From sequence record OP172790: a DNA stretch of 64,000 nt. One strand, written 5' to 3'. This document shows positions 654 to 54,174 of this stretch, one piece after another. The notes beneath the pieces were generated by a model. It searched no databases, was not told the DNA's origin, and was given only the letters and a program-made list of their open reading frames with translations. The DNA comes from Escherichia phage ECO319P1. Each line of letters starts with the position of its first letter. The first letter of the stretch is position 1. A program made the position numbers and the translations under genes.

Positions 654-1079
654 ATGAGTTGGTTTATGTGCTGGTTAGCACTAACTCTTAACATTTACAC
701 GGAGGCAGGTGGAGAGGGTGAGCAAGGTATGAGGATGATTGCTGATGTAGCGGTCACTCGTACTACGCACAAAGATTACCCAGATAACATTAGCAAAGTT
801 ATTCTTCAACCGGGTCAATTTTCTTGGACTTATAACTTAAAGTCGAGGTCTGAGAAAGGATTAGTTGCTTATAATAAGCGTCTCTTAAAGTCTAAGAGAA
901 TGACTAATCCAAAAGAAAGAGAAGCATATGCCATAGCGATGAAAGTCGCGTACAGAGCTTTACAGCCGGGGTATAAACCCAAGTACAGGTATACTCACTT
1001 CTACAGTGGGACAGACAAGCCCAAGTGGGCTAAAAACAAACGTGCCGTCAAACACGGCAACCATTACTTTATCAAATAA
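654..1079 (+). CDS. SleB-like cell wall hydrolase
   Basis: AAGGAG RBS upstream of ATG; EAGGEGEQG...AVT.RT...LQPGQFSW motif pattern typical of SleB/Hydrolase_2 family; hydrophobic N-terminus. Confidence 0.65.
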   Translation: MSWFMCWLALTLNIYTEAGGEGEQGMRMIADVAVTRTTHKDYPDNISKVILQPGQFSWTYNLKSRSEKGLVAYNKRLLKSKRMTNPKEREAYAIAMKVAYRALQPGYKPKYRYTHFYSGTDKPKWAKNKRAVKHGNHYFIK

Positions 1080-1088
1080 GGATTCACA

Positions 1089-1849: not shown

Positions 1850-1861
1850 CGGAGATTCAAC

Positions 1862-2465: not shown

Positions 2466-2475
2466 GAGGTGACAA

Positions 2476-27649: not shown

Positions 27650-27823
27650 ATGCACGGATATGGTGACAACAGAAAGGTAGACTGGATGTGGTGCTCTTGT
27701 AAGAAGTGCATGAAGTCCAGTAGCTACAAACTTTCAAACGACTACAAGGCTGAGAAGAAGCTCGGTCGTAGTAAAGCTCGTCAAATTGCTAAACAAGAAT
27801 GTCAGGAGTTAAGTTATGAGTAA
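27650..27823 (+). CDS. hypothetical small Cys-rich protein (57 aa)
   Basis: AAGGTG RBS 5 nt upstream of ATG; CSCKKC motif; below track cutoff. Confidence 0.35.
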   Translation: MHGYGDNRKVDWMWCSCKKCMKSSSYKLSNDYKAEKKLGRSKARQIAKQECQELSYE

Positions 27824-28209: not shown

Positions 28210-28418
28210 TGCAGTACATTGATAAATATAGTGGTGAGAAGGGTGAAGAAACCCTGTTTATCTTTAAAACAGATTGTCTGGAGCAAGGTCAGTTGATTAA
28301 CTTCACTGAACTGGCTAACCTGAAAGAAGAGATTGACCGCTTGTATGGTGATGAACAGTCTCGTATCCTGAACGAATCACTTCTTGGTGATTACACTTGT
28401 GATGGTTGCACAATATGA
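28209..28418 (+). CDS. hypothetical protein
   Basis: GGAGG RBS, ATG start. Confidence 0.45.
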   Translation: MQYIDKYSGEKGEETLFIFKTDCLEQGQLINFTELANLKEEIDRLYGDEQSRILNESLLGDYTCDGCTI

Positions 28419-28618
28419 GTCTTGCAAAAGAGTTCATGGACTTTATCGTTGACAATGAAATACCACTATCAGACAGGGCTGCTGCCCTGATTGGTAAGCT
28501 TGGTGTTGCTGACGAAGAACTTGAGTGGCTTTCCTGTCTCAATGCTGCTGGTGTTGATAATTGGGAAGGCTGTGACTATGCTGCTGACTTGCTGAGGGAG
28601 AGAACAGATGAATGTTAA
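28415..28618 (+). CDS. hypothetical protein
   Basis: ATG 28415 overlapping upstream stop; track start 28406 is TTG. Confidence 0.4.
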   Translation: MSLAKEFMDFIVDNEIPLSDRAAALIGKLGVADEELEWLSCLNAAGVDNWEGCDYAADLLRERTDEC

Positions 28619-29000
28619 ACTAAGTAAGAAAGGTCAGGCTCTTCTGGCTACTCGTAAACAGGCACTTCAAGATGTGATTAATAAGTCCTTTGAGAAGATG
28701 CCGTTCGATATCACAATTCTCGCAAGTACAGTGCGTACTGAAGAGGAGCAACGAGCTAACATAGCCAAAGGTGTGTCTTGGACAATGAAGTCTAAGCACC
28801 TCACTGGAGAGGCCGTGGACATGGCTCCTTATCCGGTTGACTGGAACAACCTTGAACGGTTTGTACAGATGGCTGAAGTGGTTCTGACTACTGCCAAAGA
28901 AATGGGTATTCCCATTGTCTGGGGTGGTACTTGGAAAGAAACCACTGAAGGTTGGAAACAGAATAAACGGTTCGATGGGCCTCATTTCGAACTGAAATAA
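28608..29000 (+). CDS. endolysin, L-alanyl-D-glutamate peptidase (M15/VanY-like)
   Basis: GGGAGAG RBS; SKHLTGEAVDMAPYP and VWGGTW blocks as in T5-type endolysins. Confidence 0.8.
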   Translation: MNVKLSKKGQALLATRKQALQDVINKSFEKMPFDITILASTVRTEEEQRANIAKGVSWTMKSKHLTGEAVDMAPYPVDWNNLERFVQMAEVVLTTAKEMGIPIVWGGTWKETTEGWKQNKRFDGPHFELK

Positions 29001-29018
29001 TTATTGCACATTATAATA
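28998..29018 (+). promoter_or_regulatory. copy 2 of conserved 21-bp motif TAATTATTGCACATTATAATA
   Basis: Identical to copy 3 over 21 bp; 10 bp upstream of ATG 29028. Confidence 0.5.
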
Positions 29019-29027
29019 AGAGTCACT

Positions 29028-29483
29028 ATGGCAAGAAAACCCACTGTAATTGATAACTCATTCCTTGTTGATATGTTCAATTCTATTGACGGTATCGGAG
29101 ATTTGGGAAGTTGGATGCAAGATGTAATTTATGGAAGTGCTCGTCTTGGTCATTCTAACCCATCAGCAGCAGTGGCAATTTTCAAGGCTTTAGCGACTCT
29201 TCCAGTTATTAGCTTTGACACTGTAAAGCACTTCGTAAACAACAGGTCAGAGGTAATTGACCAACGTACATTCAGTGACAGACATGTTTATGCCTTCATG
29301 AACAGAGTCTTATCAGCACGGAAAGGTATTGAGTTTTACTATGAACGTAAGACTGGTCAGAAATTTCATAGCATTGAACCAGTGGAAGATGTTGATTCTA
29401 CTGATTTTGTCTATGCTGATGGTGTAAAAGCCAGTGAATTAGTTTACGAAAATGTTGTAAGAAATCATGGAACCGAACACTAA
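29028..29483 (+). CDS. hypothetical protein
   Basis: Track start 29004 lies inside the conserved motif; ATG 29028 chosen instead. Confidence 0.5.
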   Translation: MARKPTVIDNSFLVDMFNSIDGIGDLGSWMQDVIYGSARLGHSNPSAAVAIFKALATLPVISFDTVKHFVNNRSEVIDQRTFSDRHVYAFMNRVLSARKGIEFYYERKTGQKFHSIEPVEDVDSTDFVYADGVKASELVYENVVRNHGTEH

Positions 29484-29558
29484 TGTATAGTGTCTAATGA
29501 GCGAAGGACGTTTTAACTGAGCCTTCACAATTGAGTTTTATATAAGGAAATATATCAT

Positions 29559-30326
29559 ATGTCTACTGCAATCCCTTCTACCTCCTCTTCTAAAAAATCT
29601 CGCACTGTTTATGATGCAATTGAAAACGATGTTTACGACGCACGTATCGTCCGCTTCATTGGTCTGGGTGTTCAGGAACAACCTGAATGGCAGGGTGAGA
29701 AGAAATCTCCAGCCTTTAAATGCTCCATCTCTTTTGAACTGATTGATATCGACGCAACTGGTCGCACTTTCGAAGGTGATGAAGATAAAGTCGGTAAGCC
29801 GATTGACCCTCGTCCTTCTTGCATGTTCAAAGATTACTACCTGTTCCCAGGCGCTAAACGTGGCGGTGTGTTCGACCTGTGTAAAGCAATCGACCCATCA
29901 ATCACTGAAGTTCCTCGTAATCTGGAATGGTTCATGGATAAGCTGGGTGAAGTTGTGAGTGTTGGTGTTGGTTCTTATACTACCAAAGCTGGTGTAACTC
30001 GTAACAAAGTTACTTCTGTTGGTGCTGTAAGTTCTCGTAACAAGCCTAAAGTTGGTGAAGCACGTTCTGAACTGGTTGGTTTCAACCCGTATGTAGATTC
30101 TCCGGAAATGGTTCAGGCCTACGGTAAAGTTTACAAATTCCAGCGTGACATGCTGACTGAAGCACACGATAAAGCGAATATCCCGTTTGCTGGTAAAGAG
30201 CCAGTTAACGACAGCGGTGATGGTGAGCGTCCAAGCAACACTGAAACTCGTGAAGAGCAGAAGTACTCCAAGACTTCTAATCAAACTCCTAACGATGTTC
30301 CTTTCGACGACGATATCCCGTTCTAA
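29559..30326 (+). CDS. putative single-stranded DNA-binding protein with acidic C-terminal tail
   Basis: C-terminus PFDDDIPF matches the E. coli SSB tip DDDIPF; position within replication module. Confidence 0.55.
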   Translation: MSTAIPSTSSSKKSRTVYDAIENDVYDARIVRFIGLGVQEQPEWQGEKKSPAFKCSISFELIDIDATGRTFEGDEDKVGKPIDPRPSCMFKDYYLFPGAKRGGVFDLCKAIDPSITEVPRNLEWFMDKLGEVVSVGVGSYTTKAGVTRNKVTSVGAVSSRNKPKVGEARSELVGFNPYVDSPEMVQAYGKVYKFQRDMLTEAHDKANIPFAGKEPVNDSGDGERPSNTETREEQKYSKTSNQTPNDVPFDDDIPF

Positions 30327-30351
30327 TTTAACGCGTTGCACCGTTAAGACT

Positions 30352-30374
30352 GAGGCCTTCGGGCCTCTTTATTT
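30352..30374 (+). terminator. rho-independent terminator (UUCG tetraloop)
   Basis: GAGGCC / GGCCTC stem, TTCG loop, then TTTATTT. Confidence 0.7.
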
Positions 30375-30398
30375 GGATTGTAATAACAAGGATGTGTT

Positions 30399-30956
30399 AT
30401 GGCAAAGCGACTAAGTGCTCCAGTTCCAAAGAAGGAACATTATAAAGACTTCGATGAATTATATCGTGAGTATTGGGCACCACTTCAGAAACAATTCTTC
30501 TACATGGAAAAGGATTATCAGCTTGCTGAGGATTTAGCTCAGGAAACGATGCTCCGAGTGTGGCAGTATTGGGACAGAATCCAGTGGGATAAACTTGGTG
30601 GTGTGATTGGTACAATTGCCAACAACGTCCGGTACGGTTATGTTCGAAAAGAATTTGACCGAGTTGATACAGAGATGTACGACAACATTCTGGATTTTGA
30701 ATGTCATGATGATGGCTTAACTGACCCAATTCGTGATGTATTAAATAATGAGGCAAGCACTTTTGTTCAGTATGCTTTTGAGAAGCTTAAACCACAGGAA
30801 CGTGAGTTGTTCTCGGATGTTTATCTGAAGAACCTGAAAACAAAAGATGTTGCAAAGAAACATGGTATGACTACTGGCCATATCTATGTTCAATTGTTCC
30901 GTATTCGAACTCAACTGGTTACTAACCTTGAGCGTCACGATATTGGAACAAACTAA
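30399..30956 (+). CDS. phage-encoded sigma-70 family (ECF-like) sigma factor
   Basis: Region-2-like LAEDLAQETMLRVWQYW and region-4 HTH DVAKKHGMTTGHIYVQLFRIRTQL. Confidence 0.7.
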   Translation: MAKRLSAPVPKKEHYKDFDELYREYWAPLQKQFFYMEKDYQLAEDLAQETMLRVWQYWDRIQWDKLGGVIGTIANNVRYGYVRKEFDRVDTEMYDNILDFECHDDGLTDPIRDVLNNEASTFVQYAFEKLKPQERELFSDVYLKNLKTKDVAKKHGMTTGHIYVQLFRIRTQLVTNLERHDIGTN

Positions 30957-30968
30957 GGAGAATATAAC

Positions 30969-31169
30969 ATGGAAGTTGTATACCAGAACGGCATGTATGA
31001 AGTAAAAGTTAATCGGTACGATAATGAGTACCTAGTTGTTAACGTGAAGACTGATGTGGTTGAGGCTCGTGAATCGGCATTGCCCACAGCAGAATACAAA
31101 GCTGATGCTCTTCGTGAAGTTACGCTGAAACGTAATGAAGTTAAGGGTAAAGCGGAGGCAGCACAATAA
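30969..31169 (+). CDS. hypothetical protein
   Basis: AAGGAG RBS, ATG start. Confidence 0.45.
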   Translation: MEVVYQNGMYEVKVNRYDNEYLVVNVKTDVVEARESALPTAEYKADALREVTLKRNEVKGKAEAAQ

Positions 31170-32065
31170 TGCGAGTCCTCCTTGATTGCGACATTCTAAG
31201 ATATCAAATCGGTTCAGTGAAAGCTGCTCACCCATTCTTAAAGGGAGAGTTTGTTCCTGCTCCTGAGTCGGAGATTTGTCGGTTGGTCGAGGATTTGATT
31301 CAGCATGTGATTAAGATTAATAAGGCAGACAGTTATGTCTGTCCTTTATCCGGTAAAGGTAATTTCCGATTGGACATTGCCAAACAGGAACCCTATAAGG
31401 GTAATCGAGACCCAAACGTAACACGACCTTTTCACTATGACACTGTTGGTGACTACATCATTAAGAACCACCCTCACGTAATTGTTGATGGGATGGAAGC
31501 AGATGATTGGCTAGGCATCGAGCAGCGTAAAGACCCAGAGAATACTTGTATTGCGTCAAGGGATAAAGACCTTGGAACCGTATTTGGTTATCACTACCGT
31601 TGGGCTTGTGGCGAATATCAGCCAGAAAGAACAATTCACTGGATAACTCCATACGAAGCAACTGAGTTCTTCTTCCACCAAATGCTCACAGGCGACAACA
31701 CAGATAATATTCTTGGGTGTGGTAAGCGTGAGATGGTTAAGTGGGGAGGCAAAATGATGCTTCGCCGCAAGGGTGTTGGTAAGGGTGCTGCTGATAAGAT
31801 TTTAGCAACTTGCTCAACCGTACAAGAAATGTATGATGCTGTTAAGGCTGAATACGAAAAAATTTTTAGTGACGAGCACGAGGATGTGATGCTCGAAAAT
31901 GCCAGATTGCTCTACATTGGGCAAACACCAGACAAACTGTTTGAGTGGGACTGGCTTGACTACCAACTAAGTAAGGATACTAACGATGAACTTTTACCAA
32001 CTGAACAGCCTGAATGCACCGGACACCCTACTGATGGTGAATCTGAGCCTTATCACGAAGATTGA
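31169..32065 (+). CDS. 5'-3' exonuclease / flap endonuclease (T7 gp6-like)
   Basis: GGAGG RBS; blocks DGMEADDWLG, ASRDKDL, GDNTDNILGCG paralleling T7 gene 6 exonuclease motifs. Confidence 0.8.
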   Translation: MRVLLDCDILRYQIGSVKAAHPFLKGEFVPAPESEICRLVEDLIQHVIKINKADSYVCPLSGKGNFRLDIAKQEPYKGNRDPNVTRPFHYDTVGDYIIKNHPHVIVDGMEADDWLGIEQRKDPENTCIASRDKDLGTVFGYHYRWACGEYQPERTIHWITPYEATEFFFHQMLTGDNTDNILGCGKREMVKWGGKMMLRRKGVGKGAADKILATCSTVQEMYDAVKAEYEKIFSDEHEDVMLENARLLYIGQTPDKLFEWDWLDYQLSKDTNDELLPTEQPECTGHPTDGESEPYHED

Positions 32066-32405
32066 AGAGTTTGATGAATTCTTCCGAATCTATCTGGTAA
32101 GCGGTGATGTGGAAGAGATTGAGCATGATTCATTTATGAGTGCATTGAATGCTTCCGAGACTGGCTACTTCAAGTATCAGGTTCAAGCAAAAGAAGTAAA
32201 CACAGCGATGATGGGCGTCTCCGATGATGATATTGAAGACATGACCAATCTGAGTACTGTAGAAGTTGTTCCAGAGAGTGCTCTTTCTGATGGTAACACA
32301 GGTAATGCATATGCAGAAGGTAGTAGCGCAGTAGATGTTCGTGATGTGATTAATAACATGTCCAAAGATGAACTTATTGCACTTCTGTCCAAATTGCAGA
32401 AGTAA
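32034..32405 (+). CDS. hypothetical acidic protein (start uncertain)
   Basis: ORF overlapping exonuclease 3' end; acidic composition; no clear RBS. Confidence 0.35.
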   Translation: MVNLSLITKIEEFDEFFRIYLVSGDVEEIEHDSFMSALNASETGYFKYQVQAKEVNTAMMGVSDDDIEDMTNLSTVEVVPESALSDGNTGNAYAEGSSAVDVRDVINNMSKDELIALLSKLQK

Positions 32406-32412
32406 TCAAATA

Positions 32413-32438
32413 AGGCTGTCTTCGGACGGCCTTTCTTT
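32413..32438 (+). terminator. rho-independent terminator (UUCG tetraloop)
   Basis: GGCTGTC / GACGGCC stem, TTCG loop, then TTTCTTTT. Confidence 0.7.
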
Positions 32439-32459
32439 TACCCAAAATTTGAGTGTATT

Positions 32460-33548
32460 ATGAAAAAAGAGCTATTTGCTGTTGATAAGAACGACAACAT
32501 TAAACATTGGACTGTCGAAACTAATGGTGCTGAGATTATTGTCTGTCATGGACGATACCAAGGCAAGATGCAGAAGAAAGTGACAGTCTGTAAAGCTAAG
32601 AATATTGGGAGGGCGAATGAAACAACACCCGAAGACCAAGCGATTCTGGAAGCAGAAGCTAAGTACACCAAGCAAATCGACAAGTGCTATCGGGCGACTA
32701 TTGAAGAGGCAAGACGAGTCGGTCAAGTCCTTCCTATGCTCGCTCATAATTTCCTTGACCACGGGCATCGTATTAGCTTTCCTTGCTATGTCAGTGCTAA
32801 GCTGGATGGTGTACGATGCGTTGCAACTGTGGAAGATGGTGCTGTCACACTAACAAGTCGTGGTGGTAAGGAATATCCTTGCCCAGAGGCAATTCATGAT
32901 GAACTGGTTCACCTTAGTTATCTCACTGGAATTACTAAGTTTGATGGCGAGCTTTATATTCATGGTACGAAGCTTCAACACATTGTGTCGGCTGTTAAAA
33001 AACCTAACGACTTGACTCCGAAGTTGAAGTATTGTATCTTTGACTTACCGAACACTGATAAGTGGGAAGACCGTTGGTTAAAGCTCAAAGACATTAAGAA
33101 TAAATATCGTCTTGACCACATGGAAATCGTTGATTGTATCAAAGTTGAGAACAAACTCTCAGCGGAAATGATGCTTCACAAATACATGGGTCAAGGTTAC
33201 GAGGGTCTGATGCTTCGTAATCTGGATGGGAAGTATGAATACAACCATCGTTCAGCAGATTTACAGAAGTGGAAAATCATGCAAGACCTCGAAGCCAAGG
33301 TAATTAGTGTTGCAGAAGATAAGAATGGTGAGGGTGTCCTGACTTGCCATATAGCGGGTGAACCCGATAAAATCTTCGATGTTAAAATGCGTGGGACACA
33401 TGAGGAACGTCTGGTTGACAATCAGAAGAAGTTGATTGGCAAGTGGATTGTTGTTATTTATCAGGCATTTACAGAAGCAGGGTTGCCTCAGTTCCCGGTA
33501 GGCAGCCATGTCCGTGAATGTGATGAAGAGGGGAACCCAATTGAATAA
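32460..33548 (+). CDS. ATP-dependent DNA ligase
   Basis: Adenylation motif I SAKLDGVRC (KxDG); size and context like T7 ligase. Confidence 0.85.
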   Translation: MKKELFAVDKNDNIKHWTVETNGAEIIVCHGRYQGKMQKKVTVCKAKNIGRANETTPEDQAILEAEAKYTKQIDKCYRATIEEARRVGQVLPMLAHNFLDHGHRISFPCYVSAKLDGVRCVATVEDGAVTLTSRGGKEYPCPEAIHDELVHLSYLTGITKFDGELYIHGTKLQHIVSAVKKPNDLTPKLKYCIFDLPNTDKWEDRWLKLKDIKNKYRLDHMEIVDCIKVENKLSAEMMLHKYMGQGYEGLMLRNLDGKYEYNHRSADLQKWKIMQDLEAKVISVAEDKNGEGVLTCHIAGEPDKIFDVKMRGTHEERLVDNQKKLIGKWIVVIYQAFTEAGLPQFPVGSHVRECDEEGNPIE

Positions 33549-33864
33549 TGTAGCCGAAGGTGTTCTGAGAGAATTAGAACGTGCTGTAGCAATCGCAGAA
33601 GTTGATGGTGTTCATGAGAAAGTTGCTCTGATTACACTGTTAACTTCAGTGAAACGTGTTGTTCGTGAAATGCGGACTCACTCTACAACGTGTCCTTCCT
33701 GTGGTCAACCTAATATGGGTGCTCACTATTGTGTCGGTTCAATGCAAACTGCAAAGACTGGACTGAGGGATTTGCTCGGTAAAGAAGGTTATTATCGAGA
33801 CAGTTCTGAGATACTCAAGGACGTTTGGCCCGGTTGTGATACGAGTAAGATTGGAGCTTGGTAA
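33508..33864 (+). CDS. hypothetical protein with Cys motif
   Basis: CPSCGQP...HYC; start overlaps ligase 3' end, start uncertain. Confidence 0.4.
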   Translation: MSVNVMKRGTQLNNVAEGVLRELERAVAIAEVDGVHEKVALITLLTSVKRVVREMRTHSTTCPSCGQPNMGAHYCVGSMQTAKTGLRDLLGKEGYYRDSSEILKDVWPGCDTSKIGAW

Positions 33865-34076
33865 TGGCTCGAAAACCACGTAAACCAAAAGTTAAACCGA
33901 TTATCAATGTTTGGGACATGGATGAAGAAACGATTCAGAAGGTTATTACGCATCTGGAGAAGGATTTCCCGCTCTCAGGAATGTTAATCCGTTACAAAGC
34001 AGAGATTGGTCGTCGTAATGACGGCCTTTCCGTTGAAGATTTCTATAAAGTTAAGGAAGACGATGAAGATTTATAA
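33858..34076 (+). CDS. hypothetical protein
   Basis: GGAG RBS, ATG start. Confidence 0.4.
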   Translation: MVMARKPRKPKVKPIINVWDMDEETIQKVITHLEKDFPLSGMLIRYKAEIGRRNDGLSVEDFYKVKEDDEDL

Positions 34077-34620
34077 TGCCGGTCATATGCTTACCCGTGG
34101 TGCTCAGTTCCAACGTCAAGTTGAAAAAGATGAACTGAATAGTGTTGCTGATGATTTACAGTGGTACGACCCGAAGGAAAATAAAGAAATCAACGATAAG
34201 GCTAATCTGGATAATAACGATGGACTCGCTGAGAAGATTGTTCGCCAAGACACAAATGCTCTGTTTTGGGCTGATACTGTGGTCATTGAGCCCCTACCTG
34301 AAGCTCTTGGAACTCATGTCGAACTCGGACAGCTCAAAGGCATGCGGGATATGGCGATTGCGATTGTTAATCTTATCAATAACGCTACCTCCGTCGATGA
34401 TGCTTTTATGCAAATCGGTGCTCTCTGTGACAAACAAATAACTCGTTCTGTATACCCACACTATGAGGATATCCGCAGATTCAAAGGGGCGAATGAGTCC
34501 GAAGACCGTCGTTCTTGGGGTATCAATCAATATGTGTATGGTGTATGCCTTGACTTAACAGACGGTAAGGGTTTATACGACTGGAGCGAGGTTCTGAGGG
34601 AACTTAGCAATGAAGATTGA
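34063..34620 (+). CDS. nucleoside 2-deoxyribosyltransferase-like / dNMP N-hydrolase-like protein
   Basis: N-terminal MKIYNAGHM and ADTVVIEPLPEALGTHVELGQL resembling NDT/Rcl MKIYLAGP and DxGTxFELG (catalytic Glu); AAGGAAG RBS before ATG 34063. Confidence 0.45.
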   Translation: MKIYNAGHMLTRGAQFQRQVEKDELNSVADDLQWYDPKENKEINDKANLDNNDGLAEKIVRQDTNALFWADTVVIEPLPEALGTHVELGQLKGMRDMAIAIVNLINNATSVDDAFMQIGALCDKQITRSVYPHYEDIRRFKGANESEDRRSWGINQYVYGVCLDLTDGKGLYDWSEVLRELSNED

Positions 34621-35014
34621 TATCTACCGCAAGAGAGAGGGGGAAAACGTCGTAGGCTTTCCTATGGCGTTTGCCAGAAAGGTTTATGAGGGTTGCCCCA
34701 TTTTCCAACACCGGGATTTCTCCGAGTTTTTCTTTTCAACATCAATGACAATTCGTAATACCCTTCGTTGGGAGTACGTTGTTACAGATGATGATGGCAA
34801 TGTGACGGCCTCTATGGCTGTCTACAAAGACTTTGATATGCATGTAGGCGAATGCCTTAGTGTATTGGTAGCGTTCAGCACAGACGACCACAGCTTGTTT
34901 AAAGCGTACCGTTGGTTGATGAAGCTGGCAAAAGAAGAGATGTGCCCTTTCGTAGCTTATACACGGAAGACTGGTGATTTTACAATGGATTTAGTTTACA
35001 GGAAGGTTTCATGA
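34610..35014 (+). CDS. hypothetical protein
   Basis: GGGA RBS, ATG start. Confidence 0.5.
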   Translation: MKIDIYRKREGENVVGFPMAFARKVYEGCPIFQHRDFSEFFFSTSMTIRNTLRWEYVVTDDDGNVTASMAVYKDFDMHVGECLSVLVAFSTDDHSLFKAYRWLMKLAKEEMCPFVAYTRKTGDFTMDLVYRKVS

Positions 35015-35280
35015 GCGCATTAGATACTATGGTAGGTGGTTCACATTATCAAGCTGAAGGTGGTATTCAGCCAATTCAGTTCTATCATGCAAATCCACAG
35101 CTTGACTTTCAACAGTGTAATATGATTAAATACGCATATCGACACAAAGATAAGAACGGTTTGCAGGACTTACTGAAGGTTATTCACTATGCGCTGCTCG
35201 AAGCTGAGTTTGACTACGGTGACGACAAAGATAAGTTCGAAGCGTTTAAGGAGCAAGTACGTGGCCTCGTCAAAATCTAA
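35011..35280 (+). CDS. hypothetical protein
   Basis: GGAAGG RBS, ATG overlapping upstream stop. Confidence 0.5.
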   Translation: MSALDTMVGGSHYQAEGGIQPIQFYHANPQLDFQQCNMIKYAYRHKDKNGLQDLLKVIHYALLEAEFDYGDDKDKFEAFKEQVRGLVKI

Positions 35281-35376
35281 AAAGAAAGAAAAGAAAGAGG
35301 AGGCTCCGAAGGAGTTCTCCCCTGAAGTGATAGAAGCTGTACGAAAAGAACTCGAATCGCTTCCATTTTAATCAAA

Positions 35377-35397
35377 TAATTATTGCACATTATAATA
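35377..35397 (+). promoter_or_regulatory. copy 3 of conserved 21-bp motif TAATTATTGCACATTATAATA
   Basis: Identical to copy 2; 43 bp upstream of ATG 35440. Confidence 0.5.
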
Positions 35398-35439
35398 GAG
35401 TTCTTTCTTAACACAATTCAAAAGGATTTGTCAATACTT

Positions 35440-36060
35440 ATGTTAAAATTTATTTGGTCTATTATAGCCACTGTAGGTGTACTTGCTTCCTGTTACATAT
35501 CTGATGCTTCTCCTATCATCACAACAGCTTCTGTCATTGGTGTCTTATTTGTTCTTGGTGTAGCTTTCAAGAATGCTTGGACAAACCTGTTAGGTGCTGC
35601 ATTAACGCTGATATATGGATACCTTTCTTACAGTGCAGGTTATTATGCTAACGCACTGATAAATGTGACAGTGCTATTCCCACTACAGTTAATAGCTTTC
35701 TGGTTCTGGAAGAAGACAGAAGGTAAGACGTTTACATTAACTGAAGATTGGAAGAAAGCAATCATAGTGTTATCTGGTATAGGTATCCTCATTTCCTGCA
35801 CACTGACTAAATCCTATGGTTCACATCTTTGGCTTCATGATGGAATCTCAGCGGTATTAGTTATTGTTGCTACTTTCCTCCTGATGTTAAAAGTGAAAGA
35901 ACAGTGGTATGCTTGGATTCCTTATAATGCACTTGAAGTGTTTATGTGGTTCATGGCTGCTTCTTTAAATCCTGATATGTTGGCTATCTTTGTGATGCGT
36001 AGCATCTTCTTTGCTAACTCTCTGATTGGTGCTTACGAGTGGTTCGGTAAGAAATCTTAA
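35440..36060 (+). CDS. polytopic membrane protein, possibly PnuC-like nicotinamide riboside transporter
   Basis: 7-8 predicted TM helices, Trp-rich; segment ALINVTVLFPLQLIAFWFW reminiscent of PnuC; tentative. Track start 35383 lies inside conserved motif. Confidence 0.4.
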   Translation: MLKFIWSIIATVGVLASCYISDASPIITTASVIGVLFVLGVAFKNAWTNLLGAALTLIYGYLSYSAGYYANALINVTVLFPLQLIAFWFWKKTEGKTFTLTEDWKKAIIVLSGIGILISCTLTKSYGSHLWLHDGISAVLVIVATFLLMLKVKEQWYAWIPYNALEVFMWFMAASLNPDMLAIFVMRSIFFANSLIGAYEWFGKKS

Positions 36061-36117
36061 TAACATTCACTATTATATAATGTCATGGTTTTAATCCTCA
36101 TATGTAATGGTGAATTT

Positions 36118-36246
36118 ATGAAAGTCAAAGATTATAATGAAGAACGTTGGGAACGCAACTCTGAATCAAACAAAGAGCGTAAGATTGCTAAGAAACGTTT
36201 TAAAGAGAAACATAATCCTTGGGCTAGTTTGAGTAATAAAAAATAA
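36118..36246 (+). CDS. hypothetical small basic protein (42 aa)
   Basis: ATG ORF ending just before a terminator; weak RBS. Confidence 0.3.
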   Translation: MKVKDYNEERWERNSESNKERKIAKKRFKEKHNPWASLSNKK

Positions 36247-36250
36247 GTTA

Positions 36251-36277
36251 GGGCTGCCTTCGGGCGGCCTTTTTTCG
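36251..36277 (+). terminator. rho-independent terminator (UUCG tetraloop)
   Basis: GGCTGCC / GGCGGCC stem, TTCG loop, then TTTTTTC. Confidence 0.7.
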
Positions 36278-36293
36278 TTTATGGAGGCCAAGG

Positions 36294-36731
36294 ATGGCAA
36301 GAAAGTTTAAGAAGCGCTATGCACCAAAGAAGCAGAATCTAATCAAGGGAACACCTTATGATTCACTGTTCGAGAAGGAAATTCACGAGAGGCTCCTTCA
36401 AGACGCACGTTTTCACGATAAATCGGATAGAGTTGACTATAAAGTTCCCCATTATTACGAACCCGACTTCGTGCTTGAAAAGGACGGTAAGACCTTTTAT
36501 ATTGAGACGAAAGGGAGATTTCGTGATTCGAGCGAGGCTAGGAAATATCTATTTGTTCGGGAGAATTTGCCGGAAGATGCAGAGCTAGTCTTCATTTGGG
36601 AGAAAGCCAACACTGTATTCCCGTTCGCTAAGAAGCGCAAAGACGGAACTAAGGCGACTCACGGAGAGTGGGCAGACAAGAATGGTTTTCGTAATTGGGT
36701 ACAGACGGAGTTTACAGTGGAGAAATTATGA
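36294..36731 (+). CDS. endonuclease I (Holliday junction resolvase, T7 gp3-like)
   Basis: GGAGG RBS; YEPDFVLEKDGKTFYIETKG parallels T7 endonuclease I YTPDFLLPNGIFVETKG. Confidence 0.8.
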   Translation: MARKFKKRYAPKKQNLIKGTPYDSLFEKEIHERLLQDARFHDKSDRVDYKVPHYYEPDFVLEKDGKTFYIETKGRFRDSSEARKYLFVRENLPEDAELVFIWEKANTVFPFAKKRKDGTKATHGEWADKNGFRNWVQTEFTVEKL

Positions 36732-37171
36732 TTAAATATATTGTCGCTGTTCTTGCAATAGTGGCATCATACACAGGGACATTCTATCTGGGAGTAAGTC
36801 ACGGTGTGATTGAAACTCAGAATGGGATGTTAAAGAAGAATACTGAACAGTTAGAAGATTTGATTTCTAATGTTCAAACAGTTGACACGAAACTGAATAA
36901 CAATGCTATGGTTCAAGAAGAAATCAAAGCGAAGCTCAGTTTGAGACAGAATGAAGTAACGAAGGAGGTTATTAAATATGCTCAAAGGCCTGATGCTAAC
37001 GATGTTGTGCTTGATGATGATTGGGTGCGGGTCTACAACGATTCCAACGCCTCAGCAGGAACCGGAGATACCAGTTCCAGCCAAGTACAAGGTCAAACCG
37101 GAAGAGCCAGTAGCGATGCCTCTAAGCCCCTCAAAATTGAAGTCTCTGGAAGTAGTAAAGGACAACAATGA
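36728..37171 (+). CDS. Rz: i-spanin (Rz-like)
   Basis: N-terminal TM helix then helical periplasmic domain; ATG overlaps endonuclease stop (ATGA); contains embedded Rz1 frame. Confidence 0.6.
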   Translation: MIKYIVAVLAIVASYTGTFYLGVSHGVIETQNGMLKKNTEQLEDLISNVQTVDTKLNNNAMVQEEIKAKLSLRQNEVTKEVIKYAQRPDANDVVLDDDWVRVYNDSNASAGTGDTSSSQVQGQTGRASSDASKPLKIEVSGSSKGQQ

Positions 37172-37247
37172 TGCTTGGGCACGGCTGAGACAGCGATATC
37201 TTGATTTGCTCGAATGGACTGAATCTGTTAAGCATACCAGAAAATAA
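36978..37247 (+). CDS. Rz1: o-spanin (Rz1-like outer membrane lipoprotein), embedded in +1 frame of Rz
   Basis: Strong AAGGAGG RBS; signal peptide with lipobox MIGC; Pro-rich; starts inside Rz and extends past it. Confidence 0.65.
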   Translation: MLKGLMLTMLCLMMIGCGSTTIPTPQQEPEIPVPAKYKVKPEEPVAMPLSPSKLKSLEVVKDNNDAWARLRQRYLDLLEWTESVKHTRK

Positions 37248-37249
37248 GA

Positions 37250-37268
37250 AAGGGGCGCAATGCCCCTA
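37250..37268. terminator. bidirectional terminator between convergent transcription units
   Basis: GGGGC / GCCCC hairpin flanked by A-rich tract upstream and T-rich tract downstream, between plus-strand Rz1 and minus-strand 1304-aa gene. Confidence 0.6.
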
Positions 37269-37273
37269 TTCTT

Positions 37274-47567: not shown

Positions 47568-48446
47568 TTATGCAGTACGACGGAACATGTAAACCACAAT
47601 ATATGGTTGGATGTTGTTGTGTTTTTGGTTACCACCCGTGGTCTGTACACCACCAGTAATCTGGAGTGAGTGTTCATGAGCACCATCAGTTGTAGTACGA
47701 TAAATACCACCATTACCACCGTGAGAACGAGCATCATAGTTAATGTAACGTTCTTTATAGTTAAATGCTTCCAAACCATCATCACCCATGAACAAGTGAT
47801 AGTGAGCACCGTTAGAAAGTGCACGACCACCAATATCATGTGGGTGTGAGTGAGCAGGCATTTCACCAGTAGTTAGTGTGTGATAATATTTACCACCTTG
47901 TGCCAGAACAGTGTTGTAGTTAATAGAATCAGTACCATCGTTACCAACACCATAACCAACAAGAACACGACCCGGAGCAAACTGCTGCCAAGTACCGAAA
48001 CCAAACAGGTCGGCTGGGTTTGTTGCAGTCGCTGAAATGTAGATAGAACCTACAGGCCATGATGCCACCATACCACCATTACGTTCCAGATAACGACGAG
48101 ATACCGCATCATCAAGACCAGCATCACCAGCACGAGGCAGTGGGACACCAGTTACAACGTTTTTATTGGTATTGATACCATCTTTGTTGAAGTTAATGGT
48201 CTTAGAAGTACCAGTCATTAAGAAAGTTTTGTTACAGCTAACGGAGTCAGCATCGAACTTCAAGTTTGCGTCTAACAAGTTCATAGTATCAGAACTGATA
48301 GTAAGCTTCTTATTAAAGCTTGAGAAAGTGTTAGTCAGAGTGGTTTTGATAAGACGAATGTGGTCGTCACCCTCTTTGATTAAGTCACCGCTCAGAGGCC
48401 AAGAAGTATTAAGTTCGCTGACAAATCCAGCCTTCTCTACCGTCAT
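47568..48446 (-). CDS. tail fibre protein with phage tail-collar domain
   Basis: GGGAG RBS; C-terminal GEMPAHSHP motif typical of tail-collar domain. Confidence 0.65.
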   Translation of the reverse strand: MTVEKAGFVSELNTSWPLSGDLIKEGDDHIRLIKTTLTNTFSSFNKKLTISSDTMNLLDANLKFDADSVSCNKTFLMTGTSKTINFNKDGINTNKNVVTGVPLPRAGDAGLDDAVSRRYLERNGGMVASWPVGSIYISATATNPADLFGFGTWQQFAPGRVLVGYGVGNDGTDSINYNTVLAQGGKYYHTLTTGEMPAHSHPHDIGGRALSNGAHYHLFMGDDGLEAFNYKERYINYDARSHGGNGGIYRTTTDGAHEHSLQITGGVQTTGGNQKHNNIQPYIVVYMFRRTA

Positions 48447-48694
48447 TTATGTTTCTCCCGTTGGTTCAAATTATTTACTAAATCAGAGAGTGTTTTAATA
48501 GTTTCTGATTGAACTGCCTGAGTCTTATCAATCCTATTCAGAATCTCCCTCGTTGTGTTAACGATGCTCCCCTGTTCAGCCTGTGTGCTTTTGAGAATCT
48601 GTACATCCACATATGTGTTTATACCGACACCAATCGAAGCGACAGATAACGAGGTGGCTACACCGATAAGAATATTTCTTAGTGCGTCTTCCAT
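48443..48694 (-). CDS. hypothetical protein with N-terminal TM segment
   Basis: ATG start; stop overlaps next ATG (ATGA). Confidence 0.45.
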   Translation of the reverse strand: MEDALRNILIGVATSLSVASIGVGINTYVDVQILKSTQAEQGSIVNTTREILNRIDKTQAVQSETIKTLSDLVNNLNQREKHK

Positions 48695-53638: not shown

Positions 53639-53821
53639 TTATTTCTTGGGGTAATTTTCCTCAATTTTCTCGATGAATTCATCATCAATTGTGGTCGGTG
53701 TTTTATTTGCCAACCACTTAGCAATTTTAAAGAACACCCACTTAATAGTGGGCTCTCCAAAGATAGCTATCAATAAATTTTCACCAAAGAGAATTAAGGC
53801 CTTAATCAGAAAGGCGTACAT
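53639..53821 (-). CDS. small membrane protein (60 aa; holin candidate)
   Basis: GGGAGA RBS; ATG 53821 overlaps upstream stop; hydrophobic helices. Confidence 0.4.
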   Translation of the reverse strand: MYAFLIKALILFGENLLIAIFGEPTIKWVFFKIAKWLANKTPTTIDDEFIEKIEENYPKK

Positions 53822-54117: not shown

Positions 54118-54136
54118 TTTATACTCCTTAGAAACG

Positions 54137-54174
54137 AAAAAAGGGATGCGAGGCATTAAACCTCAACACCCCTT
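54137..54174 (-). terminator. terminator-like hairpin after Ig-like protein gene
   Basis: GGGG/CCCC and GAGG/CCTC complementary segments followed on minus strand by TTTTTTCG. Confidence 0.4.

What the first reader, a model, noticed from the sequence alone, without database searches (positions are those of the whole stretch)
28608..37247. Dispersed lysis functions with an embedded Rz/Rz1 pair
The M15-type endolysin (28608-29000) has no adjacent holin and lies 8 kb from the spanins. Rz1 (lipobox, strong RBS) starts inside Rz in the +1 frame and extends past its end, and Rz begins on the stop codon of endonuclease I. Holin candidates are small membrane ORFs within the virion module (53639-53821, 48443-48694).
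Basis: partly seen in the sequence, partly recalled or inferred. Interest (0 to 1): 0.4.

Follow-up and report, generated by a model that had tools for sequence, protein, structure and literature searches.

The report
Scattered phage lysis genes, holin unidentified
This is the ordinary, already published lysis gene set of a 7-11-like (Grimontviridae) podophage: a T5-type cell-wall peptidase, and 7.7 kb away an overlapping Rz/Rz1 spanin pair, with no recognisable holin; one proposed "holin" is instead a relative of the outer-membrane lysis factor P18 of phage PM2.

Summary
The window is a Crifsvirus, about 91% identical in DNA to Cronobacter phages A24 and GAP52. 28608-29000 encodes a soluble M15 peptidase closest to the T5 endolysin, with all three zinc ligands. 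Rz (36728-37171) starts on the stop codon of endonuclease I. Rz1 (36978-37247) is a +1-frame lipoprotein gene with a strong ribosome-binding site. It runs 76 nt past the Rz stop, so the pair is "overlapped", not "embedded".

The Rz1 frame and its lipobox are kept in six relatives from several genera, and its substitutions show purifying selection. None of this is new. RefSeq annotates these genes in GAP52, a spanin survey lists GAP52 and 7-11, and the Privateer paper describes the same layout and the missing holin.

The holin proposals are unproven:
- **Candidate 53639-53821** belongs to the family of PM2 gp l (P18), needed there to break the outer membrane. Relatives in other phages sit beside endolysin or holin genes.
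- **Candidate 48443-48694** is fixed in the tail module and matches no holin family.

A holin-like protein with two membrane segments lies outside the window in relatives.

Interest is low to moderate.

The parts
28608..29000 (+). Endolysin: a soluble M15 (LAS-type) L-alanyl-D-glutamate peptidase, 130 aa, with no signal peptide, SAR domain or membrane segment
   Evidence: Pfam Peptidase_M15_4 1.9e-7, above its cut-off. phrog_465 endolysin 7.8e-45. Full-length match to the T5 endolysin 2MXZ at E 5e-20 with the His/Asp/His zinc ligands aligned. No hydrophobic segment. 98.5% identical to the GAP52 'endolysin' gp069.
36250..36271 (+). Terminator-like hairpin (9-bp stem, then a T-run) just upstream of endonuclease I
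   Evidence: Privateer annotates a terminator at the same position. Inference only: the downstream three-gene unit may be expressed by read-through.
36294..36731 (+). T7-type endonuclease I (Holliday-junction resolvase); its stop codon overlaps the Rz start
   Evidence: PF05367 1e-9. ATGA junction seen in the sequence. The same 4-nt overlap occurs in 7-11, BUCT695, P59, PKM.Lu.22.1 and Privateer.
36728..37171 (+). Rz, the inner-membrane spanin subunit (i-spanin), 147 aa: N-terminal membrane segment, long periplasmic helix, poorly conserved C-terminal tail
   Evidence: phrog_8821 Rz-like spanin 3.6e-37. N-terminal hydrophobic segment. AlphaFold predicts one helix over residues 2-85, block-mean pLDDT 78-95 through residue 80. 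Motif D..W...YN.S invariant in 7 phages.
36962..36969 (+). Ribosome-binding sequence AAGGAGGT for Rz1, 8 nt upstream of its ATG
   Evidence: Sequence read. Identical in A24 and GAP52.
36978..37247 (+). Rz1, the outer-membrane lipoprotein spanin subunit (o-spanin), 89 aa, in the +1 frame of Rz; overlaps Rz by 194 nt and extends 76 nt past its stop (overlapped architecture)
   Evidence: phrog_1267 Rz-like spanin 6.3e-13. Lipobox MIGC with Cys17 followed by Gly, not Asp. The motif G-C-x-S-T-T is invariant in 7 phages from several genera. Synonymous:non-synonymous changes are 7:2 in the Rz1-only part, and Rz1 is the better-kept frame in the overlap.
37251..37267 (.). Bidirectional terminator hairpin between the Rz1 stop and the stop of the convergent 1304-aa virion gene (37274-41188, -)
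   Evidence: Equivalent terminators are annotated in 7-11 and Privateer.
53639..53821 (-). 60-aa homologue of corticovirus PM2 gp l (P18), an accessory lysis factor. It lies in the late virion operon and its start overlaps the upstream stop (TAATG).
   Evidence: phrog_402 5.9e-18, the family that PM2 gp l itself matches at 8.2e-14. Precomputed Pfam hit PF26925 Phage_PM2_Gpl on its homologues, including a 100%-identical one. BLASTP against PM2 gp l: 40% identity over 40 aa, E 5e-10; hhalign probability 91.7%. Conserved in 7-11 and Privateer.
48443..48694 (-). 83-aa protein with an N-terminal Gly/Ala/Ser-rich hydrophobic helix and a region read by eye as coiled-coil-like; its stop overlaps the start of the next tail-protein gene.
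   Evidence: phrog_13258 'virion structural protein' 1.6e-37. 100% identical in A24 and GAP52 and 75% in 7-11. Same position and same overlap in the distant phage PJNS034. No similarity to PM2 gp k or to the Felix O1-type putative holin.
654..1079 (+). Second soluble muralytic enzyme (SleB-like cell-wall hydrolase, 141 aa) in the early region; not mentioned in the finding
   Evidence: Pfam Hydrolase_2 1.6e-18. phrog_938 endolysin 2.5e-16. Annotated 'endolysin' in GAP52 gp023, 7-11 gp111 and Privateer gp098.

Best explanation
This is the standard lysis equipment of a Grimontviridae (7-11-like, prolate C3) podophage, spread over three transcription contexts much as in T7.

1. A soluble T5-type zinc peptidase, which cuts the L-Ala-D-Glu bond of the cell wall, is encoded among the DNA-metabolism genes. 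Because it has no export signal, it is inferred to accumulate in the cytoplasm.
2. A holin not identifiable by homology must open the inner membrane and release the enzyme (inferred).
3. The Rz/Rz1 pair completes lysis. Rz is anchored in the inner membrane by its N-terminal membrane segment. Rz1 is a lipoprotein sorted to the outer membrane, because Gly rather than Asp follows the lipidated Cys. Once the wall is cut, the complex spanning the periplasm is inferred to fuse the two membranes, by analogy with lambda Rz/Rz1.

Rz1 is encoded in the +1 frame, starts inside Rz and ends 76 nt after it. Endonuclease I, Rz and Rz1 form one translationally coupled unit at the end of the rightward gene cluster. 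The unit is bracketed by two terminators and conserved across the family.

The small late-operon gene at 53639-53821 is a homologue of PM2 P18. It is most likely an accessory lysis or membrane-active factor rather than the holin proper.
For: - **Identity of the window:** 91.6% DNA identity to A24 and 90% to GAP52 over 10 kb.
- **Endolysin:**; no membrane segment.
- **Spanins:** PHROG matches; junction and ribosome-binding site read from the sequence. The +1-frame lipoprotein ORF is present in A24, GAP52, 7-11, PKM.Lu.22.1, BUCT695 and P59, even where Rz is only 26-33% identical.
- **Selection on both frames:** synonymous:non-synonymous changes are 26:12 in the Rz-only part, 7:2 in the Rz1-only part, and 13:12 (Rz1 frame) against 6:19 (Rz frame) in the overlap.
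- **Structure and signals:** Rz is predicted as one long helix over residues 2-85. Terminators flank the unit.
- **Prior description:** RefSeq GAP52 annotates the endolysin and both spanins. Privateer annotates o-spanin, i-spanin, endonuclease and both terminators. Its paper states that the spanins follow the last structural gene, the endolysin lies about 12 kb away and no holin could be identified. Kongari et al. list GAP52 and 7-11, each as a singleton family, in what appears to be the overlapped section of their tables.
- **P18 homology:**. P18 function in PM2.
Against: - No experiment exists for this phage. The activity of every component is inferred.
- The holin step has no assigned gene.
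- Rz and Rz1 have no periplasmic cysteines, unlike lambda Rz/Rz1, which are linked by disulfide bonds (from my own knowledge of the lambda system).
- Only one long helix is predicted in Rz, from a single-sequence model with mean pLDDT 69.5.
- A second soluble wall hydrolase (654-1079) means the M15 enzyme is not necessarily the only or the main endolysin.
- The timing of expression of the rightward cluster is unknown.
Confidence: 0.85

Rival explanations
1. The P18-like protein (53639-53821) is the missing holin. It inserts its hydrophobic N-terminal helix into the inner membrane, accumulates during late gene expression and triggers release of the soluble endolysin.
For: - It is small (60 aa), with a hydrophobic helix at residues 1-22, an amphipathic cationic helix and an acidic C-terminal tail.
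- It lies in the late operon.
- It is one of only two small proteins of unknown function with hydrophobic helices conserved in the window, 7-11 and Privateer.
- Family members sit directly after an endolysin in Vibrio phages 1.061.O and 381E49-1 with no other membrane protein adjacent.
- Others sit directly before holin t in Krischvirus ECD7, and before a 'putative holin' in the Felix O1-like phage Moogle. In a Vibrio autographivirus one lies upstream of the terminase genes, two genes after an endolysin-like gene; from my own knowledge of T7 this resembles the gene 17.5 position.
Against: - In PM2 the holin role belongs to P17, and P18 is needed for outer-membrane disruption.
- Most family members do not reach a membrane-segment hydropathy threshold and look amphipathic.
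- There is no match to any curated holin family.
- In Krischvirus and Felix O1-like phages it coexists with another holin or putative holin.
Confidence: 0.2
2. The 83-aa protein (48443-48694), with an N-terminal hydrophobic helix followed by a coiled-coil-like region, is the holin. This would be a P17-like or Felix O1-like type of holin.
For: - It has the same gross layout as PM2 gp k (P17) and the Moogle 'putative holin': a short N-terminus, one hydrophobic helix and then a region that reads as coiled-coil-like by eye.
- It is encoded in the late operon.
- It is conserved family-wide.
Against: - It shows no sequence or profile similarity to P17 or to phrog_4038.
- It is unusually conserved for a holin: 100% in A24 and GAP52, 75% in 7-11.
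- Its stop overlaps the start of the tail-protein gene, and this position is kept in the distant phage PJNS034.
- PHROG and RefSeq label it a virion structural protein. That label rests on no proteomic evidence that I could find.
Confidence: 0.1
3. The holin lies outside this 64-kb window. In relatives there is a 64-aa protein with two membrane segments and a basic C-terminus (GAP52 gp017, 7-11 gp118), immediately downstream of the nicotinamide phosphoribosyltransferase gene and a few kb upstream of the SleB-like hydrolase.
For: - It has class-II-holin-like features: two hydrophobic segments and a C-terminus reading KRKLAKGKN.
- It is conserved between Crifsvirus and Moazamivirus at 34% identity.
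- By synteny with GAP52, whose gp022 homologue is cut by the start of the window, the position of gp017 falls roughly 2.5 kb before the window.
Against: - It lies in the early host-takeover region, next to a TerC-like membrane protein, so it may belong to that system.
- No homologue was found in Privateer.
- It matches no holin family.
- It could not be examined in this phage itself.
Confidence: 0.15
4. The SleB-like hydrolase (654-1079), not the M15 peptidase, is the principal endolysin, or the two act together.
For: - Hydrolase_2 at 1.6e-18 and phrog_938 endolysin.
- It has no signal sequence.
- It is conserved and annotated 'endolysin' in GAP52, 7-11 and Privateer.
Against: - It lies in the early region among Ter-like genes.
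- The Privateer authors name only the endopeptidase as the endolysin.
- It has no close solved structure.
- The M15 enzyme is more conserved: 98.5% against 87% identity to GAP52.
Confidence: 0.1
5. The Rz1 ORF is a chance open frame inside Rz and is not a gene.
For: Gene callers often omit it. A24 RefSeq and 7-11 RefSeq do not annotate it.
Against: - The frame, the lipobox and the C-terminal motif are conserved in 7 phages in which Rz has diverged to 26-33% identity.
- Purifying selection acts in the Rz1 frame.
- It has a strong ribosome-binding site.
- It matches the PHROG spanin family.
- It is one of only two lipoprotein-signal ORFs among 436.
Confidence: 0.01

Closest known systems
Lysis genes of Cronobacter phages GAP52 and A24 (Crifsvirus) and Proteus phage Privateer (Grimontviridae)
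   Same: - Same genes in the same order: M15 endolysin among replication genes, then terminator, endonuclease I, i-spanin, overlapping o-spanin and a bidirectional terminator next to the last virion gene.
- The SleB-like hydrolase is also present.
- No holin was identified.
- Protein identity to GAP52: endolysin 98.5%, Rz 85%, Rz1 89%.
   Different: This is a different phage. It is about 91% identical in DNA to A24, and one protein is identical to a protein of Escherichia phage ECO319P1. In 7-11 and PKM.Lu.22.1 the endonuclease I/Rz/Rz1 unit runs in the same direction as the virion genes rather than converging on them.
Overlapped two-component spanins (prototype P2 LysB/LysC; class defined by Summer et al. 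2007 and Kongari et al. 2018)
   Same: - The i-spanin has an N-terminal membrane segment.
- The o-spanin is a lipoprotein encoded in the +1 frame, starting inside the i-spanin gene and ending beyond it.
- The i-spanin C-terminus diverges faster than the o-spanin within the overlap, as Kongari et al. describe.
- Overlapped is the commonest class: 228 of 528 systems.
   Different: - There is no sequence relationship to LysB/LysC. GAP52 and 7-11 are each listed as singleton families.
- There are no periplasmic cysteines.
- The pair is coupled to endonuclease I instead of sitting in a lysis cassette.
Lambda Rz/Rz1 (embedded architecture)
   Same: Presumably the same function and topology: an inner-membrane subunit plus an outer-membrane lipoprotein, with the lipoprotein in the +1 frame.
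   Different: Lambda Rz1 lies wholly inside Rz. Here Rz1 extends 76 nt past the Rz stop, so the 'embedded' label fails.
Phage T5 endolysin (L-alanyl-D-glutamate peptidase, PDB 2MXZ)
   Same: Full-length homology (E 5e-20), the same size and the same His/Asp/His zinc site; soluble, with no export signal.
   Different: From my own knowledge, the T5 enzyme is encoded next to its holin. Here no holin is adjacent.
Phage T7 lysis genes (3.5 lysozyme, 17.5 holin, 18.5/18.7 spanins)
   Same: The lysis genes are scattered: the wall enzyme sits among DNA-metabolism genes near endonuclease I and a gp5.9-like gene, and a small membrane protein sits in the late virion region. The T7 gene order is from my own knowledge. 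The gp5.9-like and endonuclease I domains are.
   Different: - The enzyme class differs: an M15 peptidase here, an amidase in T7.
- Here the spanins are fused to the endonuclease I unit.
- No homologue of the T7 holin was found.
PM2 lysis factors P17 (gp k, holin-like) and P18 (gp l, outer-membrane disruption)
   Same: 53639-53821 is a sequence homologue of P18. P18 homologues were already reported in the tailed phages Felix O1, RB49, PaP3 and several cyanophages.
   Different: - PM2 is listed among the spanin-less phages, whereas this phage has Rz/Rz1.
- No P17 homologue sits next to the gene here.
- The member here has a more hydrophobic N-terminal helix than PM2 gp l.

Membership tests
Two-component spanin, overlapped architecture | The i-spanin has an N-terminal membrane segment (type II topology) | tested here: met
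   A hydrophobic segment lies at the N-terminus of Rz as started from the ATG (Kyte-Doolittle 1.98). It forms part of predicted helix 2-85.
Two-component spanin, overlapped architecture | The periplasmic domain of the i-spanin is largely alpha-helical or coiled coil | tested here: met
   AlphaFold single-sequence model: a continuous helix to residue 85, block-mean pLDDT 78-95 through residue 80, and a disordered tail over 89-147. Only one helix is predicted, not two as in lambda Rz.
Two-component spanin, overlapped architecture | The o-spanin has a signal-peptidase-II lipobox with Cys and no Asp at +2 (sorting to the outer membrane) | tested here: met
   L-M-M-I-G-C17-G-S-T-T. The motif G-C-x-S-T-T is invariant in 7 phages.
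Two-component spanin, overlapped architecture | The o-spanin gene starts inside the i-spanin gene in another frame and ends beyond it | tested here: met
   Start 36978 (+1 frame), Rz stop 37171, Rz1 stop 37247. The same holds in all six relatives.
Two-component spanin, overlapped architecture | Both frames are maintained by selection | tested here: met
   Synonymous:non-synonymous counts against A24 and GAP52; conservation across genera.
Two-component spanin, overlapped architecture | The two subunits form a complex and are required for outer-membrane disruption | not testable with these tools
   Needs genetics (Mg2+-dependent spherical-cell phenotype) or pull-down experiments.
Embedded Rz/Rz1 (lambda type) | The o-spanin gene lies entirely within the i-spanin gene | tested here: not met
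   Rz1 extends 76 nt past the Rz stop codon.
M15 / LAS zinc peptidase endolysin (T5 type) | Domain match above the curated threshold | tested here: met
   Peptidase_M15_4: 32 bits against a cut-off of 25. 2MXZ at E 5e-20.
M15 / LAS zinc peptidase endolysin (T5 type) | Zinc ligands His-x6-Asp and a C-terminal His | tested here: met
   SKHLTGEAVD and DGPHFE align with the T5 sequences SKHITGDAID and DGGHVE.
M15 / LAS zinc peptidase endolysin (T5 type) | Soluble, with no secretion or SAR signal, and therefore holin-dependent | tested here: met
   No hydrophobic segment by hydropathy scan. Holin dependence itself is inferred.
M15 / LAS zinc peptidase endolysin (T5 type) | Peptidoglycan-degrading activity | not testable with these tools
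   Needs an enzyme assay.
Holin (functional class), tested for both candidates | Small protein with at least one membrane segment and a charged C-terminus | tested here: inconclusive
   Both candidates have one N-terminal hydrophobic helix. Candidate 1 has an acidic tail. Most relatives of candidate 1 fall below the membrane-segment threshold.
Holin (functional class), tested for both candidates | Match to a described holin family | tested here: not met
   No holin family in Pfam, PHROGs or NCBIfam matches either candidate.
Holin (functional class), tested for both candidates | Adjacent to an endolysin or spanin gene in this genome | tested here: not met
   The candidates lie 11 and 16 kb from the spanins, inside the virion operon.
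Holin (functional class), tested for both candidates | Timed, lethal permeabilisation of the inner membrane | not testable with these tools
   Needs expression or complementation experiments.
PM2 P18 (gp l) lysis factor family (PF26925 / phrog_402), tested for 53639-53821 | Sequence membership | tested here: met
   phrog_402 5.9e-18, and PM2 gp l in the same PHROG at 8.2e-14. PF26925 on homologues. BLASTP E 5e-10 and hhalign 91.7%. The local Pfam copy returned no hit for this protein, so the Pfam assignment rests on the precomputed annotation.
PM2 P18 (gp l) lysis factor family (PF26925 / phrog_402), tested for 53639-53821 | Size of 50-80 aa with helix, amphipathic helix, T-x-T-x-x-D-D motif and acidic tail | tested here: met
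   Alignment A1; predicted helices 2-40 and 47-56.
PM2 P18 (gp l) lysis factor family (PF26925 / phrog_402), tested for 53639-53821 | Paired with an adjacent P17-type holin gene | tested here: not met
   The neighbours are an unknown soluble protein and the head-tail adaptor. No P17 homologue was found.
PM2 P18 (gp l) lysis factor family (PF26925 / phrog_402), tested for 53639-53821 | Required for outer-membrane disruption at lysis | not testable with these tools
   Shown only for PM2.

The most novel reading that the evidence does not exclude
Under this reading the P18-like gene at 53639-53821 is a working lysis factor. This phage, and with it the whole Grimontviridae family, the Felix O1-like phages and the Krischvirus group, would then carry a PM2-type membrane-disrupting peptide alongside a complete Rz/Rz1 spanin. 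The peptide would act either as the long-missing holin of the family or as a second, spanin-independent route through the outer membrane.

Two papers read together point the same way:
- Of the six tailed phages reported in 2007 to have P18 homologues, four (PaP3, P-SSM2, P-SSM4, S-PM2) appear in the 2018 list of spanin-less phages, as does PM2 itself.
- The other two, Felix O1 and RB49, have spanins.

So the family may be a general alternative to spanins that is redundant or differently used here.
Probability: 0.3. Interest if true: 0.5.

Novelty: new member of a known kind. Interest (0 to 1): 0.25.

Why it matters
As a lysis system this is routine. It adds one more genome to a family whose scattered endolysin and spanin genes, and missing holin, are already published. 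Two points have some value.

1. **The holin search is narrowed.** For a whole family of Enterobacterales phages of interest for therapy and biocontrol, the search comes down to a few testable genes. The P18-like and the tail-module small proteins are the only membrane-type unknowns conserved in three genera. A protein with two membrane segments lies outside the window.
2. **The family is linked to PM2 P18.** This lysis factor has an unknown mechanism. Its distribution hints at a spanin-independent way of breaking the outer membrane. Here it coexists with spanins, so redundancy can be tested in an E. coli phage that is easy to manipulate genetically.

Tried and rejected
1. **Alternative-frame ORF in the ligase gene.** An 82-aa ORF with a membrane segment lies inside the DNA ligase gene (32605-32853). 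It is open in 7-11 and Privateer too, so it looked like a hidden holin. Substitutions against A24 and GAP52 are 3:20 and 2:20 synonymous:non-synonymous in that frame, so it is not under selection. Rejected.
2. **Homology of candidate 2 to known holin-like proteins.** I compared it with PM2 gp k and with the Felix O1-type 'putative holin' (phrog_4038). BLASTP and hhalign found nothing: probabilities 0.4-2.9%. Only the gross layout is alike.
3. **The Kuravirus holin and endolysin** (phiEco32 phi32_16 and phi32_17), which sit in the tail module, as a syntenic guide. Read by eye, the holin shows no resemblance to either candidate, and the endolysin looks like a T4-type lysozyme rather than M15; neither was formally compared.
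5. **Exhaustive HMMER search with candidate 1.** It gave 29 representatives. Three of these (P0009, P0010, P0022) look like spurious translations of tandemly repeated DNA.
6. **NCBIfam** gave nothing for any lysis component.
7. **Other membrane proteins in the window:**
   - PnuC (35437-36060) is a nicotinamide riboside transporter.
   - 2181-2465 has one membrane segment, lies in the early region, and is conserved in Privateer but not in 7-11.
   - 1301-1849 is a lipoprotein with Asp after the lipidated Cys. From textbook Lol-sorting rules this predicts retention in the inner membrane.
   - None of these matches a holin family.
8. **The Krupovic 2007 Mol Microbiol paper** is not held. The function of P18 is therefore cited from three open papers.

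Full report
**What the window is.** A 10-kb query covering the finding matches Cronobacter phage A24 at 91.6% and GAP52 at 90.0% DNA identity over its full length. It matches Salmonella phage 7-11 and its relatives more distantly. These are Grimontviridae, genus Crifsvirus: prolate C3 podophages. One protein is 100% identical to a protein of Escherichia phage ECO319P1, found on a 75.3-kb contig. Genes run rightward on the + strand from 1 to 37247 (early, metabolic and replication genes). They run leftward on the - strand from 64000 to 37274 (terminase, portal, capsid, tail and ejection genes). The two clusters converge at 37250-37274.

**Check of the observation: endolysin.**
- The ORF at 28608-29000 (130 aa) passes the Pfam Peptidase_M15_4 threshold and matches phrog_465 'endolysin' at 7.8e-45.
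- It aligns over its whole length with the solved T5 L-alanyl-D-glutamate peptidase (2MXZ, E 5e-20). SKHLTGEAVD and DGPHFE align with the zinc-ligand motifs of T5.
- It has no hydrophobic segment, so it is a soluble enzyme that would need a holin.
- Its start overlaps by 11 nt the end of a T7 gp5.9-like RecBCD-inhibitor gene (PF25708, 3.6e-12).
- The downstream gene (29028-29483) is a conserved protein of unknown function with one weak hydrophobic stretch, not a membrane protein. No holin is adjacent.

**Check of the observation: spanins.**
- Endonuclease I (36294-36731; PF05367, 1e-9) ends in TGA at 36729-36731. This overlaps the ATG of Rz at 36728.
- Rz (147 aa) matches phrog_8821 'Rz-like spanin' at 3.6e-37. 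It has an N-terminal hydrophobic segment and is modelled as one long helix (residues 2-85) followed by a disordered tail.
- Rz1 starts at 36978 in the +1 frame, 8 nt after AAGGAGGT. It reads MLKGLMLTMLCLMMIGC-GSTT and ends at 37247, 76 nt after the Rz stop. It matches phrog_1267 at 6.3e-13.
- In the terminology of Summer et al. and Kongari et al. this is the overlapped architecture, not the embedded one. Overlapped is the commonest class: 228 of 528 systems.

**Is Rz1 more than chance?**
- In A24, GAP52, 7-11, PKM.Lu.22.1, Aeromonas phage BUCT695 and Proteus phage P59 the same +1-frame ORF is present. It starts inside Rz, ends 75-150 nt beyond it and carries a lipobox. The motif G-C-x-S-T-T and a C-terminal Asn-Asn and Leu are invariant, although Rz itself has fallen to 26-33% identity.
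- Against A24, synonymous:non-synonymous changes are 26:12 in the Rz-only part (Rz frame). They are 7:2 in the Rz1-only part (Rz1 frame, against 1:8 read in the Rz frame).
- In the overlap the counts are 13:12 for Rz1 against 6:19 for Rz. Rz1 is therefore the better-protected frame there (56/64 against 46/63 identical residues). Kongari et al. describe the same behaviour for overlapped spanins.
- Of 436 six-frame ORFs of 40 aa or more, only Rz1 and the first membrane segment of PnuC pass a strict lipoprotein-signal filter.

**The conserved unit.**
- In every family member examined, the endonuclease I stop overlaps the Rz start by 4 nt.
- A terminator-like hairpin lies just upstream of endonuclease I (36250-36271). 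A bidirectional hairpin (37251-37267) fills the 26 nt between Rz1 and the convergent 1304-aa virion gene. Privateer annotates both.
- In 7-11 and PKM.Lu.22.1 the unit runs in the same direction as the virion genes, at the end of the late operon. In the window, BUCT695, P59 and Privateer it converges on them.

**This is already known.**
- RefSeq GAP52 annotates gp069 as endolysin and gp088/gp089 as Rz-like spanins.
- Kongari et al. 2018 list vB_CsaP_GAP52 and 7-11 as singleton i- and o-spanin families, in what appears to be the overlapped section of their tables.
- The Privateer paper states that the inner and outer spanins immediately follow the last structural gene and that the endolysin endopeptidase lies about 12 kb away. 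[quoted passage not shown]
- From my own knowledge, T7 has a similarly scattered arrangement (genes 3.5, 17.5 and 18.5/18.7). Felix O1-like phages are described as having lysis genes 'scattered around the genome'.

**Holin candidate 1 (53639-53821, - strand, 60 aa).**
- Its ATG overlaps the stop of the upstream gene (TAATG), and it precedes the head-tail adaptor gene.
- It matches phrog_402 (unknown function) at 5.9e-18 and no holin family.
- Its close homologues, including a 100%-identical one, carry the precomputed Pfam hit PF26925 'Phage_PM2_Gpl'.
- I fetched PM2 to test this. Its gp l (51 aa) falls in the same PHROG (8.2e-14). It aligns with the window protein at 40% identity over 40 residues (E 5e-10) and with a family profile at 91.7% probability.
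[quoted passage not shown] P17 (gp k) is the holin-like factor. P18 homologues in Felix O1, RB49, PaP3 and cyanophages were reported in 2007.

**Genomic contexts of the P18 family.**
- Directly after a GH108-type endolysin in Vibrio phages 1.061.O and 381E49-1. The GH108 reading is mine, from the sequence; the tool match is phrog_315 'endolysin'.
- Directly before holin t in Krischvirus ECD7.
- Directly before a 'putative holin', with an N-terminal membrane segment and a coiled-coil-like region, in Moogle. The same gene pair occurs in VpaE1 and in an Erwinia Kolesnikvirus.
- Upstream of the terminase genes, two genes after an endolysin-like gene, in a Vibrio autographivirus.
- The family is therefore associated with lysis genes. 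Most members are amphipathic rather than clearly membrane-spanning. In Felix O1-like phages and in RB49-like phages, which from my own knowledge are Krischvirus, the family coexists with spanins.

**Holin candidate 2 (48443-48694, - strand, 83 aa).**
- It has a Gly/Ala/Ser-rich hydrophobic helix followed by a region that reads as coiled-coil-like by eye. The layout resembles PM2 gp k and the Moogle protein, but no sequence or profile similarity was found.
- It is 100% identical in A24 and GAP52, 75% in 7-11 and 53% in Privateer.
- Its stop overlaps the start of the next tail-protein gene. The same position and overlap recur in the distant 65-kb phage PJNS034.
- PHROG and RefSeq call it a virion structural protein. 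The Privateer record does not flag its homologue as verified by mass spectrometry.
- A role in the tail module is more likely than a holin role.

**Census of membrane proteins.**
- In the window the genes with hydrophobic segments are: a lipoprotein (1301-1849), a protein with one membrane segment (2181-2465), PnuC, Rz, Rz1 and the two candidates.
- I compared six-frame ORFs of the window, plus the part of GAP52 that lies outside it, with the complete 7-11 and Privateer genomes. The only small hydrophobic proteins conserved in all three are Rz, Rz1, the two candidates and a lipoprotein-like early protein (GAP52 gp010).
- Outside the window, GAP52 gp017 (64 aa, two membrane segments, basic C-terminus) has a homologue in 7-11 but none was found in Privateer.
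- A conserved alternative-frame ORF with a membrane segment inside the ligase gene was rejected, because it shows no purifying selection.

**A second wall hydrolase.**
- 654-1079 encodes a SleB-like hydrolase with no signal sequence (Hydrolase_2, 1.6e-18; phrog_938). It is annotated 'endolysin' in GAP52, 7-11 and Privateer. It has no adjacent holin either.

**Mechanism.**
- Shown by sequence: a soluble zinc peptidase, an inner-membrane protein with an N-terminal membrane segment and a long helix, an outer-membrane-type lipoprotein in an overlapping frame, and a P18-family peptide in the late operon.
- Inferred: the endolysin accumulates in the cytoplasm. An unidentified holin releases it. After the wall is cut, Rz/Rz1 fuse the inner and outer membranes. 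The P18-like peptide assists membrane disruption or acts as the holin itself.

**Verdict.**
It is unproven for the holins.
- The arrangement is a new member of a known and published kind.
- The one point worth following up is the P18 homologue coexisting with spanins. Four of the six tailed phages first reported to carry P18 homologues (PaP3, P-SSM2, P-SSM4, S-PM2), and PM2 itself, are on the 2018 list of spanin-less phages. This suggests a spanin-independent route through the outer membrane, which could be tested for redundancy in this phage.

Noticed in passing
window 654-2465 (+): A conserved early-region cluster. It holds a SleB-like hydrolase (654-1079), a 70-aa Ala/Glu-rich protein, a 182-aa lipoprotein whose lipidated Cys is followed by Asp-Asp and which has weak, sub-threshold glycine-zipper hits near its C-terminus (1301-1849), a 122-aa coiled-coil-like protein, and a protein with one membrane segment (2181-2465). 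Asp after the Cys predicts retention in the inner membrane (textbook Lol-sorting rule). GAP52 annotates the last gene from a later start that removes its membrane segment.
   Followed up: partly
window 28406-28618 (+): A T7 gp5.9-like RecBCD inhibitor (PF25708, 3.6e-12) whose last 11 nt overlap the endolysin start. With endonuclease I, this gives the region a T7-like set of DNA-metabolism genes.
   Followed up: partly
L010 (7-11) 2025-2984 and L013 (PKM.Lu.22.1) 2079-3032, compared with window 36294-37247: The endonuclease I/Rz/Rz1 unit is inverted between genera. In 7-11 and PKM.Lu.22.1 it runs in the same direction as the virion genes. In the window, BUCT695, P59 and Privateer it converges on them. 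It always sits at the junction next to a bidirectional terminator.
   Followed up: partly
window 32605-32853 (+), inside the DNA ligase gene 32460-33548: An 82-aa alternative-frame ORF with a strong hydrophobic segment stays open in 7-11 and Privateer. Its substitutions against A24 and GAP52 are almost all non-synonymous in that frame (3:20 and 2:20), so it is a by-product of ligase conservation.
   Followed up: yes
L004 (GAP52) 30683-30877 (-), about 2.5 kb before the start of the window by synteny: A 64-aa protein with two membrane segments and a basic C-terminus (class-II-holin-like), lying between the nicotinamide phosphoribosyltransferase gene and a TerC-like membrane protein. It has a homologue in 7-11 (gp118); none was found in Privateer.
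   Followed up: partly
window 53821-54156 (-): The gene upstream of the P18-like gene is only 111 aa and matches positions 1-97 of a 418-position PHROG (phrog_20917). Its counterpart is 202 aa in GAP52 and 417 aa in a metagenomic relative (L018). It is a variable or truncated late gene of unknown function.
   Followed up: no
window 13620-14228, 14284-14640 and 27650-27823 (+): These are variable loci relative to GAP52. The first is only 36% identical, and the other two have no GAP52 counterpart, in a genome where most proteins are 85-100% identical.
   Followed up: no
window 35437-36060 (+); NAD-salvage genes outside the window in relatives (L004): A PnuC-like nicotinamide riboside transporter (PF04973, 2.5e-25). 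In relatives, nicotinamide phosphoribosyltransferase and ribose-phosphate pyrophosphokinase genes accompany it, which suggests a phage-encoded NAD+ salvage set.
   Followed up: no
P0009, P0010, P0022 (representative search): Three long 'proteins' with 8-12 matched stretches to the 60-aa query look like translations of tandemly repeated, probably eukaryotic satellite, DNA. These are spurious hits, not relatives.
   Followed up: yes
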